From a virus, in IMG/VR virus record IMGVR_UViG_3300036760_000689, positions 46,117 to 110,116 of that record: 64,000 bases of DNA; one strand, given 5' to 3'. Every line of letters begins with the position of its first letter. Within the stretch, counting starts at the first letter, position 1. The notes under the pieces were generated by a model. It was given only the letters and a program-made list of their open reading frames with translations. It was not told where the DNA came from and made no database searches. Both the position numbers and the translations under genes were made by a program. Shown in pieces: positions 48,674-53,039 of the stretch.

Positions 48674-48982
48674 TCACTCAGGCTCAAGTTGCTTTTCCAG
48701 TTCCTTGATCTTGGCCTCGATCTCCTTGCGCCTCTCGGTCGCGGGTTTCAAGGACTCAAGATGGGCCTTGTGTTCCCGGAGTTCCTTCTCGATCCGATCC
48801 TGCTGGCGAGTATGAATTTCCCTACGCAGTTCCCGCAATCTGGGAGCCAGCCATTCAGGCTCCTCGGCGTTCAGTTTATCGCATTCGGACTGAACGGACC
48901 TTCCAAGGGCAGATAGGGCGACCATCTCCGCATAATCGGCTCGATCCTTGTCAAAGTTCTTCAGGATATCAATCAACGGCAT
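48674..48982 (-). CDS. Small coiled-coil protein overlapping the TROVE-like gene end
   Basis: GGAGGT Shine-Dalgarno inside the upstream gene; MPLIDILKNF...EPEWL...coiled coil. Confidence 0.7.
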   Translation of the reverse strand: MPLIDILKNFDKDRADYAEMVALSALGRSVQSECDKLNAEEPEWLAPRLRELRREIHTRQQDRIEKELREHKAHLESLKPATERRKEIEAKIKELEKQLEPE

Positions 48983-50450
48983 TGACCACCTCCTTTCCCA
49001 CAAACGTATCCTTCAGGGTAAGCAACGGCGTTGCGAAGATTTCATCGATCAGACTATATCGATTTGCGCGCATAGTCGTCACCAAGTTAGGCAGACTGTA
49101 GTAATCCACGCCCTTCGTTAGGTCAAACACCTGAATGTCAAGGTTCTCTTCCTTCATCTGTCCCGGCAGGAACCTGTCAGCATGTCCCACCATACTCGCA
49201 TGGCAATGGTAGAAATAGACTGGAATCTGTTTTCCTGTCGCGCTCACGAGTGCCTTATATTGATCTATAAACAAAGGCGGAGTGTTCTCTAGGCCATCAG
49301 ACACAATGGCAATCCCGTCGATTTCCACCTTGCGTTCGACCGCAGCCAACAACCCGCATCCGACCGAAGTCGCCCCGTTAGCATTGACACTCTTGGTTAT
49401 CCCTAGAAGTTCCTCATAGGTTTTCCCCGTCGCATCAATGAATCGCGGCGTGGCATCGAAGAACACCAGGGCCACGGTTCCCGTGACGTACTTTGCCAAG
49501 GTCGCAGCGACATTCCGCGAGATCTCGATCGCGTTCTCCATGGATCCAGACTTGTCTCCAAGCACAAGCCAGTTTCCTTCGATCCCTTTGGAGGCCATGA
49601 TCTGCTTCTCCTGAGTGGCCGCGAGTTTGGCTTTCAGGGCCACATCAGTCTGAGCCTCTGAAGCGCGAGTGGTCTTCAAGGTCGCCTTTTTAGAACTGGC
49701 CACCTTCTCCAACGCCTGTTCATAAGCGGCACGAAGCGCTGGAACGGTCTTCACACCCAGTTTTTCAAGCATCTTGGTATTGGTCACCAGTTCCGTGGGA
49801 GTCATCTGTCCAATCAGAGCCAGGACCAAATCCGACTCCTTGGCCTTCGCTCCGAGGGCACCCATTGCGATCAGGAAAGGGATCTTCCTATAAACAATCA
49901 CCCCTGCGGCCTCTAGCGTACTCATGTTCTTAAGGTTCGCAACCACCTCAAAAACGGACTCGGACGGATACTCTCTCTTGAACAGAACCCGATTCGCGCG
50001 CTCGGATGGCTTCGTATGCGTAAGAGCATACAATTCTTTCAACACTGTCCGATGCTGTAGGGCAATACGGTCCCAGTTACAACTTTCGATCTTTCGCAGA
50101 TATCGTTCTGCCAACCGTTTGATACTCTTCCCGTTTCCGGGCGTTGGGACTTCAAGGGCAAAACGATAGGCTTTGAGGAACTCCCGAGGATTAAGGAGAG
50201 CCAGATGCGCCAAGGCGTTTTCCGCAAATTCCGGCTGAGTAGGAACGGTAAGGGCCACCACCGGCAGCGCGGCCTTGGCATCCCGAATCTGGCCATGATC
50301 CTTATCCCAAGCAATGAGGTGCGCCAGAAACTCTGGTTCTTCCTTTGCGGCCTTCTGACCGACTGGTATGTATTCGACTAATTTACCGTGGGCCGATCGA
50401 GAAAGCTCGGACAAGATCTGGTTCTTGGTGATTCCGATCTCCTGCTTCAT
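48969..50450 (-). CDS. TROVE/Ro60 (Rsr)-like RNA-binding protein with C-terminal vWA domain
   Basis: Helical basic N-terminal 290 aa (EPEFLAHLIAW..G.IRD; QMTPTELVTN); MIDAS DKSGSM, GATS, SDGLEN; adjacent Y-RNA-like elements. Confidence 0.7.
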   Translation of the reverse strand: MKQEIGITKNQILSELSRSAHGKLVEYIPVGQKAAKEEPEFLAHLIAWDKDHGQIRDAKAALPVVALTVPTQPEFAENALAHLALLNPREFLKAYRFALEVPTPGNGKSIKRLAERYLRKIESCNWDRIALQHRTVLKELYALTHTKPSERANRVLFKREYPSESVFEVVANLKNMSTLEAAGVIVYRKIPFLIAMGALGAKAKESDLVLALIGQMTPTELVTNTKMLEKLGVKTVPALRAAYEQALEKVASSKKATLKTTRASEAQTDVALKAKLAATQEKQIMASKGIEGNWLVLGDKSGSMENAIEISRNVAATLAKYVTGTVALVFFDATPRFIDATGKTYEELLGITKSVNANGATSVGCGLLAAVERKVEIDGIAIVSDGLENTPPLFIDQYKALVSATGKQIPVYFYHCHASMVGHADRFLPGQMKEENLDIQVFDLTKGVDYYSLPNLVTTMRANRYSLIDEIFATPLLTLKDTFVGKEVVNAVD

Positions 50451-50915: not shown

Positions 50916-51380
50916 TTACTCGCGAGAAGTCAGTTCGGGAGATATAGGGCTTGCGGTCCTATGTCGCTTTCGCTTCCAAGTCAAGTGACATGTATCCCGT
51001 ACAAGTACCCGCGATATTTGCTGGCGGAGAGTCCATCGCTTCTTTTCTATGGACTTCGCCCTTTTACATGGATCGCATCGGCAGCCCCTTTTATATCTGC
51101 TCCTCGTCCCATGTTTCTCAACTTGGCCATGAACGATGCGATGACAGCTATAACACAGAGGGATGCATTTGGATAATTCTGGTTCCCTTCGTTCATCCCG
51201 CCAAATCCAGATATGATGACTAACCTTCTTGTCCGGATCTGCATGATGACAAACAAGTTTGTCACTGCTACCGCATCTCGTACATTTGCTGTCATACCTG
51301 GAGAACCACCCTTTCCTTCTTTCGGCGACAAGTATCCTTTGCCGTCTGAGTCTGCCTTCAGCATTTAATGGCATTGGCAT
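50916..51380 (-). CDS. HNH endonuclease
   Basis: CTRCG...CHHADPDKK...ELSKCIPLCYSCH...HGTRSRYKRGCRCDPC. True start is probably 51380, because the upstream codons are the tRNA-like RNA. Confidence 0.85.
   Translation of the reverse strand: MPMPLNAEGRLRRQRILVAERRKGWFSRYDSKCTRCGSSDKLVCHHADPDKKVSHHIWIWRDERREPELSKCIPLCYSCHRIVHGQVEKHGTRSRYKRGCRCDPCKRAKSIEKKRWTLRQQISRVLVRDTCHLTWKRKRHRTASPISPELTSRE
50920..51014 (-). ncRNA. Y-RNA-like element with a two-hairpin payload
   Basis: TCGCGGG-tac..CGGGA-TACAT...TCCCG..GACTT-CTCGCGA; same module as 51387-51525. Confidence 0.6.
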
Positions 51381-51386
51381 TTTTAC

Positions 51387-51525
51387 TGGCGTCAAGTCGA
51401 TGAAGGTTTTTGCTGTTAAAACAGATTTTAAATCTGTCGCGTTTGCCATTCCGCCAGTCGCCCGCATGGTGGGCGACCCACGATTCGAACGTGGAAAAAC
51501 ATGTACCCTTTATCCGTAGACGCCA
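51387..51525 (-). ncRNA. Circularly permuted tRNA-Leu(UAA) / YrlA-like Y RNA
   Basis: T arm CCACG-TTCGAAT-CGTGG, then GTCGCCC-ACCA-tgc-GGGCGAC, D arm TGGCGGAATGGCAAACGCG, anticodon arm ACAGA-TT-TAA-AA-TCTGT, all closed by TGGCGTC/GACGCCA. Confidence 0.85.
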
Positions 51526-51530
51526 TTCCC

Positions 51531-51986
51531 TTAGGCTTTCCGATTATTTTCATACCAGTCTCGGTAAACCTTACTCTTGCATTCTGGGTGTTCTCCGAAT
51601 GATTTCGTATCGTCCCTGTTTCTCCAGACGATCAGATTATTAGGATCGTCGTATTTCTTGCATCTTGGGCATTTTAGCCAGTTTGCATTCCCGCATTGCC
51701 GGAATGCTCTTAGCCGACGATGTAGTAACAGGTGGTATCTCTGACTTTCGCAGATCACCAAATCCTTTGATTCCTTCTTGTTTCCATTGCCGTGATGCAC
51801 TACCGCATTGTCCGGCAATGCTCTTCCGAAAGCTGCTACCGCCATCATTACATAAATCGGGACATAACCGCTCGACCTAGCTCGGGGATGACTGGGGTCG
51901 AGAATCGCAGGATACCCATTGCTCACATCTTTACGCCCACCCTTCCAGTTATTATTGTTTTCCCTAGAACAATCGCTCTTTTTCAT
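51531..51986 (-). CDS. HNH endonuclease (HNH_3-like, possibly degenerate)
   Basis: NNNWKGG...HPRA..GYV...VVHHGNGNK..DLVIC. Confidence 0.8.
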   Translation of the reverse strand: MKKSDCSRENNNNWKGGRKDVSNGYPAILDPSHPRARSSGYVPIYVMMAVAAFGRALPDNAVVHHGNGNKKESKDLVICESQRYHLLLHRRLRAFRQCGNANWLKCPRCKKYDDPNNLIVWRNRDDTKSFGEHPECKSKVYRDWYENNRKA

Positions 51987-52531
51987 GCCGGTTTCCTGTT
52001 TCTCAGGTACTCGCAGATCGCATGATAGTCATACCCCTTTCTGAGACACCAACTTTCGGGATGTTCTGATCCTTTATCCTTATTGTCTCTTTTGCAAGAG
52101 GTCAGATAATTCGTAGCGTCGTTCTTGCCCCCAAGCTCCAATGGCACCCAATGATCAATCGTGAGAAGTGCATCGCCCATTTTCGCGCCACAATATACAC
52201 ACTTAAATCCATCCTTTGACCAAATCCGTTGCTGCACCGATCCGGAAATCTCCCACCGTAGTTTCCGCTGGAAGATCTTCGCATTCCCAACCAGAATCTC
52301 CGGATCATCGCTCCGGTGAATGAAATCGCTCCACTCTTCGTCCGTCAGATCGATGAACGTCCAGTCGAGTCCTTTGTAGGCAACGGCGCTCGGCAACAGC
52401 AAAACCGCAGCGGCTCCGCCGCCACTCACCACAAGGCCGCTGATCTTCAGGAGTGATCCGATGTCGCCATACTGCACCGGCCTGTTCCGGAACTCCATCA
52501 GGTAGAAACGATCTCCGCTTGCACCACTCAT
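51983..52531 (-). CDS. HNH nuclease with an atypical N-terminal domain
   Basis: KDGFKCVYCG...LTIDHWVPLELGG...NYLTSCKRDNKDKG; start at 52531 or 52498. Confidence 0.8.
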   Translation of the reverse strand: MSGASGDRFYLMEFRNRPVQYGDIGSLLKISGLVVSGGGAAAVLLLPSAVAYKGLDWTFIDLTDEEWSDFIHRSDDPEILVGNAKIFQRKLRWEISGSVQQRIWSKDGFKCVYCGAKMGDALLTIDHWVPLELGGKNDATNYLTSCKRDNKDKGSEHPESWCLRKGYDYHAICEYLRNRKPA

Positions 52532-52922
52532 CCTCACTAACCCTCCATATGACGGTATGACCAACAATTCCAACGATGTTCTTAACATAATGGAGGGCAT
52601 TGCAAACCCGGCAAAGGACGTTGTATTGGAATCTGCATGCCTCATCCCGAATGATTTTTCTGTAAAGGGCCACGTTCGAATGCATTGCGCGAGCCTCTTT
52701 ATTTCCACCGCCGTTGATGTGATTGATTTCTAGGATCGCAATTACGTCACAATCGCATATGAAGCATCTAGGCCCTCCCAGGACTTTCATAGCCCCAACC
52801 CTGAGTCTTTGTCTTTGAGCCTTCCAATAAGTCCTATTGTAGAGAACGCGGTGGGTTTTCCTATATTCCCTCATGTAAAAACGCTGGTATTTTGTTCTTA
52901 TCTCCTTGTCCTTATTTGCCAT
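52305..52922 (-). CDS. HNH endonuclease (C-terminus runs over the next gene)
   Basis: CFIC...LEINHINGGG...YNVLCRVCN; same subfamily as 4773-5384. Confidence 0.8.
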   Translation of the reverse strand: MANKDKEIRTKYQRFYMREYRKTHRVLYNRTYWKAQRQRLRVGAMKVLGGPRCFICDCDVIAILEINHINGGGNKEARAMHSNVALYRKIIRDEACRFQYNVLCRVCNALHYVKNIVGIVGHTVIWRVSEDEWCKRRSFLPDGVPEQAGAVWRHRITPEDQRPCGEWRRSRCGFAVAERRCLQRTRLDVHRSDGRRVERFHSPER

Positions 52923-52962: not shown

Positions 52963-53039
52963 AAATGTGGGGATCACTTTTGAACCAACGACCTCTTGCA
53001 AAGAGTGTGCATGTAACCTCATCAGTGATCCCCATATTT
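52963..53039 (-). ncRNA. Long hairpin RNA with GGTTACAT motif and tRNA-Ala(UGC)-like fragment
   Basis: AAATATGGGGATCAC/GTGATCCCCACATTT stem enclosing GATGAGGTTACAT-GCACACTC-TTTGCAA-GAGGTCGTTGGTTCAA. Confidence 0.55.

What the first reader, a model, noticed from the sequence alone, without database searches (positions are those of the whole stretch)
51387..51525. Circularly permuted tRNA-Leu(UAA) that keeps its anticodon arm, with a Y-RNA-like stem replacing the variable arm
Seen: the order is T arm (51494-51478), acceptor 3' strand + A73 + CCA (51477-51467), 3-nt linker TGC, complementary acceptor 5' strand GGGCGAC, Leu-type D arm, then a perfect 5-bp anticodon arm with TAA. The ends pair (TGGCGTC/GACGCCA and GATAAAGG/CCTTCATC) at the position of the long variable arm. 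Established: YrlA has the T-acceptor-D permutation, but its Ro-binding stem takes the place of the anticodon arm. Inference: RNase P cleavage and 3' trimming could give a two-piece, chargeable, Ro-tethered tRNA reading the UUA codon, or this is an evolutionary intermediate between tRNA and YrlA. Standard tRNA finders would probably miss it.
Basis: partly seen in the sequence, partly recalled or inferred. Interest (0 to 1): 0.9.

Follow-up and report, generated by a model that had tools for sequence, protein, structure and literature searches.

The report
Phage Y RNA keeping a tRNA anticodon arm
This 139-base phage RNA gene is a back-to-front copy of a leucine tRNA grafted onto the docking stem for the RNA-surveillance protein Ro60, and unlike the published bacterial versions it and a set of relatives still carry a complete anticodon arm.

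Summary
On the minus strand of 51387-51525 lie a T arm, acceptor 3' strand, A73-CCA, a 3-nt linker, the complementary acceptor 5' strand, a class-II D arm and a perfect 5-bp/7-nt anticodon arm (UUUAAAA), all enclosed by a two-part terminal stem.

It is not a stray or misassembled tRNA. The 493-aa gene 0.9 kb downstream on the same strand folds as Ro60 (Z 17-20 to every solved Ro60), although Pfam TROVE misses it.

In about 190 related phage and metagenome loci, the same conserved stem (YACUG ... NUACAUG ... GACUU) frames arrays of tRNA-like RNAs just upstream of this gene. Rfam's YrlA model gives sub-threshold hits to sibling elements.

Sixteen distinct relatives share the window's full layout, anticodon arm included. 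Their anticodons differ, and only 4 of 16 keep NCCA. The closest ortholog has a closed acceptor loop without CCA.

Best reading: a YrlA-class Y RNA that mimics a whole tRNA rather than decoding. This copy is probably cut by RNase P, as M. smegmatis YrlA is.

It is a new variant of a known kind. This scan has already noted related tRNA-shaped Y RNAs beside phage Ro60 genes on other DNA.

The parts
51387..51525 (-). Whole element: a 139-nt YrlA-class Y RNA gene with a permuted tRNA-Leu(UAA)-like body.
   Evidence: Sequence read. Covariance model R1 scores it 127 bits, E 1e-30. It lies between the stop of an HNH ORF (51531) and the likely start of the next HNH ORF (ATG 51380; the PHROG match begins at residue 35 of the long ORF).
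51519..51525 (-). Outer terminal stem, 5' strand (TGGCGTC).
   Evidence: Pairs with 51387-51393. In 7 aligned relatives this helix is 100% paired, and 6 of 7 pairs change on both sides.
51500..51518 (-). Internal-loop word UACG, inner stem 5' strand (GATAAAGG) and the conserved word GUACAUG.
   Evidence: The words YAC(U)G and NUACAUG recur in the 5' strand of the 74 Y-stem elements found in related loci.
51478..51494 (-). T arm (CCACG / TTCGAAT / CGTGG).
   Evidence: The T helix is 97% paired with 4 of 5 pairs covarying. The loop is the canonical TTCRANY.
51457..51477 (-). Acceptor helix: 3' strand GTCGCCC, A73, CCA, linker UGC, 5' strand GGGCGAC. The predicted RNase P site is between 51464 and 51463.
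   Evidence: Seven perfect pairs. The helix is 98% paired with 6 of 7 pairs covarying. An NCCA start of the loop occurs in 22 of 72 family members against about 1 expected by chance. RNase P cleavage is inferred from M. smegmatis YrlA (PMC4201824).
51439..51456 (-). U8 G9 and the class-II type D arm (GCG / GAAUGGCAAA / CGC).
   Evidence: Rfam's tRNA model aligns this half with high posterior probability. It matches the 5' halves of genuine phage tRNA-Leu(UAA) genes seen in control loci.
51421..51437 (-). Anticodon arm ACAGA / UUUAAAA / UCUGU (anticodon UAA at 51430-51428).
   Evidence: Perfect 5-bp stem and 7-nt loop with U33 and A37. The same arm occurs at the same model position in 16 distinct relatives, with U33 in 13 and R37 in 16.
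51387..51420 (-). Spacer (UUUAACAGCAAAAA), inner stem 3' strand (CCUUCAUC), conserved word GACUU, and outer stem 3' strand (GACGCCA).
   Evidence: The spacer and inner stem are nearly identical in ortholog L039/L057:5358-5496. GACUN precedes the outer 3' strand across the family.
48969..50450 (-). Gene for a divergent phage Ro60 (HEAT-repeat ring plus vWA domain), the presumed protein partner.
   Evidence: AlphaFold2 model pLDDT 82. The Foldseek top 12 are all Ro60/TROVE. VIA-align gives Z 16.7-20.2 over 410-437 residues to ten Ro60 entries, then vWA-only matches at Z<=14. phrog_850 'RNA-binding protein' matches at E 2.8e-7. There is no Pfam TROVE hit.
50920..51014 (-). Second Y-stem element of the array, with a 46-nt payload and no T arm.
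   Evidence: Model R1 with filters off: 25.2 bits, E 7e-6. It shows the same UAC...AUACAUG...GACUU frame and overlaps the last codons of the HNH ORF 50916..51467.

Best explanation
The element is the gene for a YrlA-class Y RNA, the RNA partner of a divergent phage Ro60 encoded 0.9 kb downstream on the same strand.

Its 5' and 3' ends pair into a two-part stem. The conserved internal loop (YACUG on one side, GACUU on the other, followed by NUACAUG) is the likely Ro60 docking site.

The stem displays a nearly complete, circularly permuted class-II tRNA-Leu(UAA) cloverleaf. In it the stem leaves the body at the variable-arm position, so the T, acceptor, D and anticodon arms can all fold into the tRNA L-shape.

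The tRNA part acts as a mimic that engages tRNA-recognising factors. It is not a decoder.

In this copy the 7-bp acceptor helix, A73, the encoded CCA and the 3-nt linker make cleavage by host RNase P and 3' trimming likely. That would give a two-piece RNA held together by the acceptor and terminal stems, as shown for M. smegmatis YrlA.

Shown here: the anatomy, the Ro60 fold, the family, its position and strand, and the conservation of the helices.

Inferred: Ro60 binding, transcription, RNase P processing, and what the anticodon loop contacts.
For: - Anatomy read directly. ARAGORN calls the re-permuted body tRNA-Leu(taa).
- The downstream protein has the Ro60 fold over both domains and matches phrog_850.
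- My Y-stem detector, run on both strands, found 74 elements in related loci, all on the Ro60 strand.
- Model R1 gave 203 matches at E<=0.01, again all on that strand. 91 of 149 end within 1 kb upstream of the Ro60 start.
- Only 13 of 680 ordinary tRNA genes in those loci lie inside such a stem, so it is not a general pre-tRNA flank.
- Every helix covaries: 91.5% of cells are paired against 63% in shuffles (0 of 500) and 32-49% when the register is slid.
- 16 distinct relatives have the full layout including a 5-bp/7-nt anticodon arm.
- Rfam YrlA RF02553 gives significant sub-gathering hits to sibling elements: L039:3735-3865 at 49 bits, E 5e-8, plus L053 and L090.
- Published YrlA genes lie within 4 kb of Ro60 on the same strand. 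M. smegmatis YrlA is cleaved by RNase P and gains CCA in vivo (PMC4201824).
Against: - There are no expression, binding or processing data.
- The window element itself gets no Rfam YrlA hit even at E<=10.
- The published Ro-binding motif GNCGAAN0-1G is absent.
- The protein has no sequence-level match to TROVE or to Ro60 chains, so the Ro60 assignment rests on a predicted fold and one PHROG.
- The members used for the covariation count were chosen or model-ranked for having the helices, so the pairing percentages are partly by construction.
- Differences between members could reflect repeated capture of different tRNA pieces from the adjacent tRNA arrays rather than compensatory change in place.
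Confidence: 0.77

Rival explanations
1. It is a working two-piece tRNA-Leu(UAA). RNase P and 3' trimming free the CCA end, LeuRS charges it, and it decodes UUA on the ribosome with the long stem tolerated as an oversized variable arm, with or without Ro60.
For: - This copy has a 7-bp acceptor helix, the Leu discriminator A73, an encoded CCA, all tertiary-pair nucleotides and a canonical anticodon loop.
- ARAGORN calls the re-permuted body tRNA-Leu.
- The phage has no other tRNA gene, while its relatives carry many.
- NCCA is far commoner in the family than chance (22 of 72).
- Chen et al. raised possible aminoacylation for M. smegmatis YrlA.
Against: - The closest ortholog keeps the anticodon arm but has no CCA.
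- 12 of 16 anticodon-arm members lack NCCA, and five have 4-nt closing loops.
- Anticodons differ on similar scaffolds and include UCA.
- TTA makes up only 7% of Leu codons, 6 per 1000.
- A stem of about 15 bp bound by a 55-kDa ring at the variable-arm position is hard to fit on the ribosome (inference).
Confidence: 0.08
2. The Y RNA is real, but its anticodon arm is a passenger. Recombination with a neighbouring tRNA-Leu gene recently replaced part of an ordinary YrlA-like module, and the arm has no role of its own.
For: - Y-RNA arrays in relatives sit directly beside dense tRNA arrays on the same strand, which gives ample opportunity for exchange.
- The 5' half is very like genuine phage tRNA-Leu(UAA) genes.
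- Most family members (56 of 72 with a T arm and acceptor helix) lack the arm.
- Many topologies coexist.
Against: - The arm is intact, with U33 and R37, in 16 distinct elements from different phages.
- Near-identical scaffolds carry different, still perfectly paired stems and different anticodons. L040 has ACTGA/TCAGT with UCA, and L042 has ACTGT/ACAGT with CAU. That fits maintenance of the loop shape better than decay.
Confidence: 0.12
3. It is not one gene. It is the leftover 3' half and 5' half of two tRNA genes broken by HNH endonuclease insertions, or an assembly join.
For: - HNH genes lie on both sides.
- Tandem tRNA genes give the same T-arm/CCA/spacer/D-arm order and score 40-47 bits on my model.
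Against: - The two acceptor strands are perfectly complementary to each other, unlike in the 36 tandem-tRNA controls.
- No tRNA body lies upstream of the T arm, and no T arm lies downstream.
- The ends pair.
- The same 139-nt layout recurs in independent contigs without flanking HNH genes.
Confidence: 0.02

Closest known systems
YrlA (Y RNA-like A; Rfam RF02553; Chen et al. 2014, PMC4201824; structure in Wang et al. 2018, bioRxiv 10.1101/312249)
   Same: - Encoded just upstream of a Ro60 gene on the same strand.
- The 5' and 3' ends pair into the protein-docking stem.
- Permuted order: T arm, acceptor-like helix, D arm, with the tRNA tertiary nucleotides kept.
- Often several Y RNAs in tandem.
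- Like M. smegmatis YrlA, a 7-bp acceptor helix that should be an RNase P substrate.
   Different: - It keeps a full anticodon arm with a canonical 7-nt loop. The docking stem therefore leaves at the variable-arm position instead of taking the place of the anticodon stem; S. Typhimurium YrlA 'lacks the anticodon loop'.
- CCA is encoded.
- The conserved stem words are YACUG / NUACAUG / GACUU, not GNCGAAN0-1G.
- There is no RF02553 hit.
- The partner Ro60 is too divergent for Pfam TROVE.
Thermus phage phiLo Ro60 with Yrl1/Yrl2 (PMC12135203; PDB 9KOP, 9L5Y)
   Same: A phage-encoded Ro60 with Y-like RNAs just upstream of its gene. It is the best Foldseek match of the window's protein (E 2e-9).
   Different: Yrl1 and Yrl2 were picked by a CGAA motif and are not described as tRNA-like. 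Identity to the window's protein is only about 15%.
Circularly permuted tRNA genes of Cyanidioschyzon merolae and some archaea
   Same: The 3' half of the tRNA lies upstream of the 5' half, joined across the acceptor ends by a short linker, and the outer ends pair.
   Different: Those are matured through a bulge-helix-bulge motif, splicing endonuclease and a circular intermediate into ordinary tRNAs. Here the terminal stem has a 4x5-nt internal loop rather than a BHB, the setting is a bacteriophage, and relatives without CCA argue against maturation to a tRNA.
Two-piece (permuted) tmRNA
   Same: A permuted gene whose product stays in two base-paired pieces after processing at the acceptor end.
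   Different: No tag reading frame or pseudoknots. ARAGORN, which detects permuted tmRNA, reports none.

Membership tests
YrlA-class Y RNA (Chen et al. 2014; Rfam RF02553) | Encoded within about 4 kb of a Ro60 ortholog and on the same strand | tested here: met
   The element ends 937 nt upstream of the start of the Ro60-fold gene (48969..50450, minus strand). Family-wide, 91 of 149 matches end within 1 kb upstream, all on the same strand.
YrlA-class Y RNA (Chen et al. 2014; Rfam RF02553) | tRNA-like module in the order T arm, acceptor-like helix, D arm, with the conserved D/T-loop tertiary nucleotides | tested here: met
   Read. The helices covary. The Levitt pair is A15:U48 in most relatives and G15:C48 in L087 (read).
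YrlA-class Y RNA (Chen et al. 2014; Rfam RF02553) | 5' and 3' ends form a stem carrying the Ro-binding motif GNCGAAN0-1G | tested here: not met
   The stem is present and covaries, but the published motif is absent. The conserved words here are YAC(U)G, NUACAUG and GACUN.
YrlA-class Y RNA (Chen et al. 2014; Rfam RF02553) | Scores at or above the Rfam RF02553 gathering score (69 bits) | tested here: not met
   No RF02553 match to the window element even at E<=10 in a 1-kb search. Sibling elements reach 31-49 bits, E 5e-8 to 7e-3.
YrlA-class Y RNA (Chen et al. 2014; Rfam RF02553) | Bound by Ro60 in vivo or in vitro | not testable with these tools
   Needs co-immunoprecipitation or a gel-shift assay.
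Ro60 / TROVE protein (partner gene 48969..50450) | HEAT-repeat ring followed by a vWA domain, matching solved Ro60 structures over the whole length | tested here: met
   Foldseek top 12 are all Ro60. VIA-align gives Z 16.7-20.2 with 410-437 residues aligned and rmsd 4.0-5.4. The model pLDDT is 82.
Ro60 / TROVE protein (partner gene 48969..50450) | Match to Pfam TROVE (PF05731) or sequence similarity to solved Ro60 chains | tested here: not met
   No TROVE hit at E<=10 or in the six-frame genome search. phmmer and the family profile find no Ro60 chain. None of 120 listed homologues carries TROVE.
Functional tRNA (Rfam RF00005 / ARAGORN) | Contiguous cloverleaf scoring above threshold | tested here: not met
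   ARAGORN finds 0 genes. RF00005 gives 22.8 bits against a gathering score of 29, on the 5' half only. It is called tRNA-Leu(taa) only after in-silico re-permutation and shortening of the stem.
Permuted tRNA gene (C. merolae type) | Bulge-helix-bulge motif at the paired termini for splicing-endonuclease processing | tested here: not met
   The terminal stem is 7 bp, then a 4x5-nt internal loop, then 8 bp. It lacks the two 3-nt bulges separated by 4 bp.
Two-piece tmRNA | Tag-peptide reading frame and pseudoknots with a permuted tRNA-like domain | tested here: not met
   ARAGORN's tmRNA search is negative. There is no Rfam tmRNA hit on the element.

The most novel reading that the evidence does not exclude
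Because the anticodon loops keep the canonical shape (7 nt, U33, R37) while the triplet itself varies between phages, these Ro60-docked whole-tRNA mimics may be built to be recognised at the anticodon. They could act as decoys or sensors for host anticodon nucleases or other anticodon-reading enzymes during infection. In the NCCA-bearing copies such as this one, they could even be chargeable two-piece tRNAs. Either way, phage Ro60 particles would be working directly on the tRNA-cleavage front of phage-host conflict.
Probability: 0.2. Interest if true: 0.85.

Novelty: new variant of a known kind. Interest (0 to 1): 0.6.

Why it matters
What the tRNA-like module of bacterial Y RNAs is for remains an open question. 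The published examples lack an anticodon loop, so attention has gone to the tRNA elbow.

Here is a large, uncultured phage family: more than 900 Ro60-like proteins that Pfam does not label, found mostly in soil and peat metagenomes. Its Y RNAs come in arrays, and a sizeable minority present a complete tRNA, anticodon loop included.

This gives concrete test objects:
- Does Ro60 bind the YACUG/GACUU stem?
- Does RNase P split the NCCA-type copies?
- Which synthetases, modification enzymes or anticodon nucleases recognise the loop?

The range of topologies in one family also bears on the proposal that YrlA arose from dimeric tRNA transcripts. That range includes permuted bodies with and without an anticodon arm, standard-order tRNA bodies inside the same stem, and bare hairpins.

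Practically, standard tRNA finders and Rfam miss these genes, and gene callers run ORFs through them.

Tried and rejected
- ARAGORN and Rfam on the native sequence gave nothing usable.
- ARAGORN on the re-permuted element with the full 65-nt stem mis-threaded the anticodon arm as an intron. It worked only with a shortened stem.
- A junction-pattern scan of viral contigs returned almost only ordinary tandem tRNA genes. These were useful as a control but not as relatives.
- blastn of the locus against cultured and deposited phages found no match. tblastn of the Ro60 found one uncultured 595-kb phage at 30% identity.
- RNAduplex between the flanks over-extended and was abandoned for motif-anchored parsing.
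- My strict Y-stem detector missed the window element itself because of its A/C mismatch. The covariance model recovered it.
- The promoter/terminator scan was no better than shuffles.
- RtcB and RNA ligase were searched for in the phage genome and not found, so no RNA-repair enzymes support a repair-platform reading here.
- Sequence-level links of the protein to Ro60 failed.
- L017, a permuted Ser(UGA)-like element beside tRNA genes, scores 64 bits. Its 22%-complete contig shows no Ro60, which is inconclusive.
- A word scan for closer Leu(UAA) orthologs found only the L039/L057 contigs.
- The genome-collection scan found only 5 MAG contigs (three Acidobacteriota, one Verrucomicrobiota, one Clostridia), a weak host hint at best.
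I therefore could not check whether published YrlA alignments contain anticodon-retaining members. The held papers mention none.

Full report
WHAT IS THERE

The minus strand of 51387-51525 reads, 5' to 3':
- outer stem strand TGGCGTC
- UACG
- inner stem strand GATAAAGG
- GTACATG and TTTTT
- T arm CCACG-TTCGAAT-CGTGG
- acceptor 3' strand GTCGCCC
- A, CCA, TGC
- acceptor 5' strand GGGCGAC
- TG
- D arm GCG-GAATGGCAAA-CGC
- G
- anticodon arm ACAGA-TTTAAAA-TCTGT
- a 14-nt A-rich spacer
- inner stem strand CCTTCATC
- GACTT
- outer stem strand GACGCCA

All nucleotides that make the tRNA tertiary contacts are in place: U8/A14, A15/U48, G18G19 with T55C56, and T54/A58.

ARAGORN finds no tRNA in the window or in the whole 110-kb virus record. 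Rfam finds nothing at gathering score, and at E<=10 only a 22.8-bit tRNA match to the 5' half. The RNA folds better than all 200 shuffles (z -3.6). When the order is restored in silico and the long stem shortened, ARAGORN calls tRNA-Leu(taa).

SURROUNDINGS

The element fills the gap between two HNH endonuclease genes, with a third HNH gene further upstream. A long ORF nominally starts at the ATG formed by CCA|TGC inside the element. Its HNH match begins at residue 35, however, and an ATG at 51380 is the likely start.

The 493-aa gene at 48969..50450, on the same strand, has no Pfam family beyond faint vWA signals. It matches phrog_850 'RNA-binding protein' and has more than 900 homologues, many on 100-113-kb contigs.

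An AlphaFold2 model built on 31 homologues (pLDDT 82) matches every solved Ro60. The Foldseek top 12 are all Ro60/TROVE. VIA-align gives Z 16.7-20.2 over 410-437 residues, covering both the helical ring and the vWA domain, before dropping to vWA-only matches. Sequence methods do not see the relationship.

So the element lies 0.9 kb upstream of a divergent phage Ro60 gene, the setting in which YrlA RNAs were defined (PMC4201824).

RELATIVES

A first junction-pattern scan returned mostly ordinary tandem tRNA genes, whose two acceptor strands do not match each other. That made a useful control.

I then fetched 56 viral, 80 metagenomic and 5 MAG loci that encode the Ro60 relative. A detector for permuted modules and one for the terminal stem showed arrays of elements just upstream of the gene. 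All are framed by the same stem:
- outer helix
- YAC(U)G
- inner helix
- NUACAUG
- payload
- inner helix
- (C)GACUN
- outer helix

All 74 detected frames are on the Ro60 strand, although both strands were scanned.

A covariance model built from seven window-type elements gave 203 matches at E<=0.01, again all on that strand. The window scored 127 bits. Of the 149 aligned matches, 91 end within 1 kb upstream of the Ro60 start. Tandem tRNAs in control loci reach only 40-47 bits.

These loci also hold 680 ordinary tRNA genes, of which only 13 lie inside such a stem. The stem is therefore specific to the Ro60-proximal array and is not a general pre-tRNA flank.

Rfam's YrlA model gives significant but sub-gathering hits to sibling elements: 49 bits, E 5e-8 for L039:3735-3865, and also L053 and L090.

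In the window itself, the model with filters off finds a second frame at 50920-51014 (E 7e-6) and a weak third at 52968-53034. The window therefore carries a small Y-RNA array that HNH genes have invaded.

THE ANTICODON ARM

Among 72 distinct family members with a T arm and a 7-bp acceptor helix, 16 have a perfectly paired 5-bp stem with a 7-nt loop at the model's anticodon position. Position 33 is U in 13 of these and position 37 is a purine in all 16. The triplets differ:
- UAA (window and L039/L057)
- UGA (three members)
- UCA (two)
- CAU (four)
- UGU, UAG, GAA, UUG and CUU (one each)

On the seven hand-picked members every helix covaries. Overall 91.5% of cells are paired against 63% in shuffles (0 of 500) and 32-49% with the register slid. 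The anticodon helix is 100% paired with 4 of 5 pairs changed on both sides.

These members were chosen for having the arm, so that percentage is partly by construction. The less biased statement is 16 of 72 at a fixed position. The chance of five consecutive pairs at any one given position is under 1% (my arithmetic, (6/16)^5).

Closely related scaffolds carry different but still paired stems and different anticodons, as in L040 versus L042. This suggests that the loop's shape is maintained while the triplet is free.

THE ACCEPTOR END

The acceptor loop begins NCCA in 22 of 72 members (chance would give about 1). It is a 4-nt loop in another 22.

Among the 16 anticodon-arm members only four have NCCA: the window, L091, L084 and L069.

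The closest ortholog of the window element (L039/L057:5358-5496) is also 139 nt, with the same anticodon stem, a CUUAAAA loop and the same spacer. It closes the helix with A-CAUCUAU and has no CCA.

A free, chargeable CCA end is therefore not a conserved property of this design.

For this copy, RNase P cleavage 5' of G1 (between 51464 and 51463) followed by trimming of UGC is a reasonable inference. M. smegmatis YrlA, which also has a 7-bp helix, is cut by RNase P in vitro and in vivo and gains CCA, and both halves stay Ro60-bound (PMC4201824).

MOST LIKELY FUNCTION

The element is best read as a YrlA-class Y RNA. The terminal stem docks Ro60. The payload mimics a whole class-II tRNA, with the docking stem leaving where a long variable arm would.

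I judge decoding unlikely for four reasons:
- the non-conserved CCA
- the varying and partly stop-reading anticodons
- the rarity of TTA (7% of Leu codons)
- the bulk of a Ro60-bound stem (inference)

What the anticodon loop is for is not shown. It may be a contact for an anticodon-reading factor, including a decoy or sensor for anticodon nucleases. It may equally be a passenger acquired from the adjacent tRNA arrays. The phage has no RtcB or RNA ligase, so nothing here ties the particle to ligase-based repair.

COMPARISON WITH WHAT IS KNOWN

Published YrlA RNAs have the same permutation and genomic setting. In them, however, the Ro-binding stem takes the place of the anticodon stem, and S. 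Typhimurium YrlA is stated to lack the anticodon loop and a free CCA (10.1101/312249). D. radiodurans Yrn1 can be drawn with a 5-bp/6-nt 'anticodon arm', but in a different orientation.

The phiLo phage Ro60 paper describes two Y-like RNAs chosen by a CGAA motif and does not describe them as tRNA-like.

I found no paper in the held library describing anticodon-bearing YrlA RNAs or permuted tRNAs in phages. The two Y-RNA reviews, Burroughs & Aravind 2016 and the YrlA supplement could not be read.

Earlier notes of this scan report tRNA-shaped Y RNAs beside phage Ro60 genes on other genomes. One is a complete tRNA with the Y stem as a side arm, and another is a phage operon whose Y-like RNAs share an AUACUG/CGAUUUA loop. 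The general theme is therefore not new to this scan.

VERDICT

This is a real feature, correctly described. It is a member of a large phage Y-RNA family and a new variant of the YrlA kind, because it retains a complete anticodon arm. The chargeable-tRNA reading is possible for this copy but is not supported by conservation.

Noticed in passing
window 50920-51014 (-): A second Y-stem element (UCGCGGG-UAC...AUACAUG...GACUU-CUCGCGA) with a 46-nt payload and no T arm. It overlaps the last codons of the HNH ORF 50916..51467.
   Followed up: partly
window 52968-53034 (-): A weak third Y-type hairpin (13 bits, E 0.013) with UUACAUG but no GACUU word. It coincides with the 21-nt inverted repeat I2 found.
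   Followed up: partly
window 50916-52708 (-): Three HNH endonuclease genes are interleaved with the Y RNAs. In related phages the Y RNAs are packed head to tail with spacers of about 8-10 nt (for example L090:316-1313, six in a row). The HNH genes therefore look like later insertions into the array.
   Followed up: partly
whole genome G000 (110,116 bases): ARAGORN finds no tRNA gene in this phage. The Ro60 loci of its relatives hold 680 tRNA genes, all on the Ro60 strand, in about 1 Mb (for example about 20 in L053).
   Followed up: partly
L040:4121-4247, L043:3818-3940, L090:316-436, L160:546-665, L046:5463-5580, L075:1516-1635, L094:5850-5971: The same Y stem also encloses standard-order tRNA-like bodies that ARAGORN calls tRNA-Phe, Ile, Lys, Ala, Thr and Glu. 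Two are called 'SeC' (tca) and one 'Stop' (tta), so stop-codon-reading anticodons recur among the Y-framed bodies.
   Followed up: partly
L039:3737-3860: A sibling element places a 4-bp/7-nt anticodon-type hairpin (CUUGUAA) on the 5' side of the T arm, so the stem enters between the D and anticodon arms. This is the element that Rfam YrlA scores best (49 bits).
   Followed up: no
L053/L088:4863-5000 and L090:520-663: These elements keep a variable-arm hairpin as well as the Y stem. L053 has a CUUCAAA anticodon loop and a GTGA-closed acceptor helix. L090 has a GAAA-capped helix at the anticodon position.
   Followed up: no
L017:8239-8383: A permuted Ser(UGA)-like element (complementary acceptor strands, ACCA, 15-nt linker, CUUGAAA loop) lies next to tRNA-Asp and tRNA-Gln genes. 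The contig fragment shows no detectable Ro60 and the element has no UACAUG word. It scores 64 bits on my model.
   Followed up: partly
window 48969-50450 (-) and homologues P0004-P0123: More than 900 Ro60-fold proteins, mostly from soil, peat and wetland metagenomes, carry no TROVE annotation in public resources. Only 5 of about 185,000 species genomes hold one, all on MAG contigs (three Acidobacteriota).
   Followed up: partly
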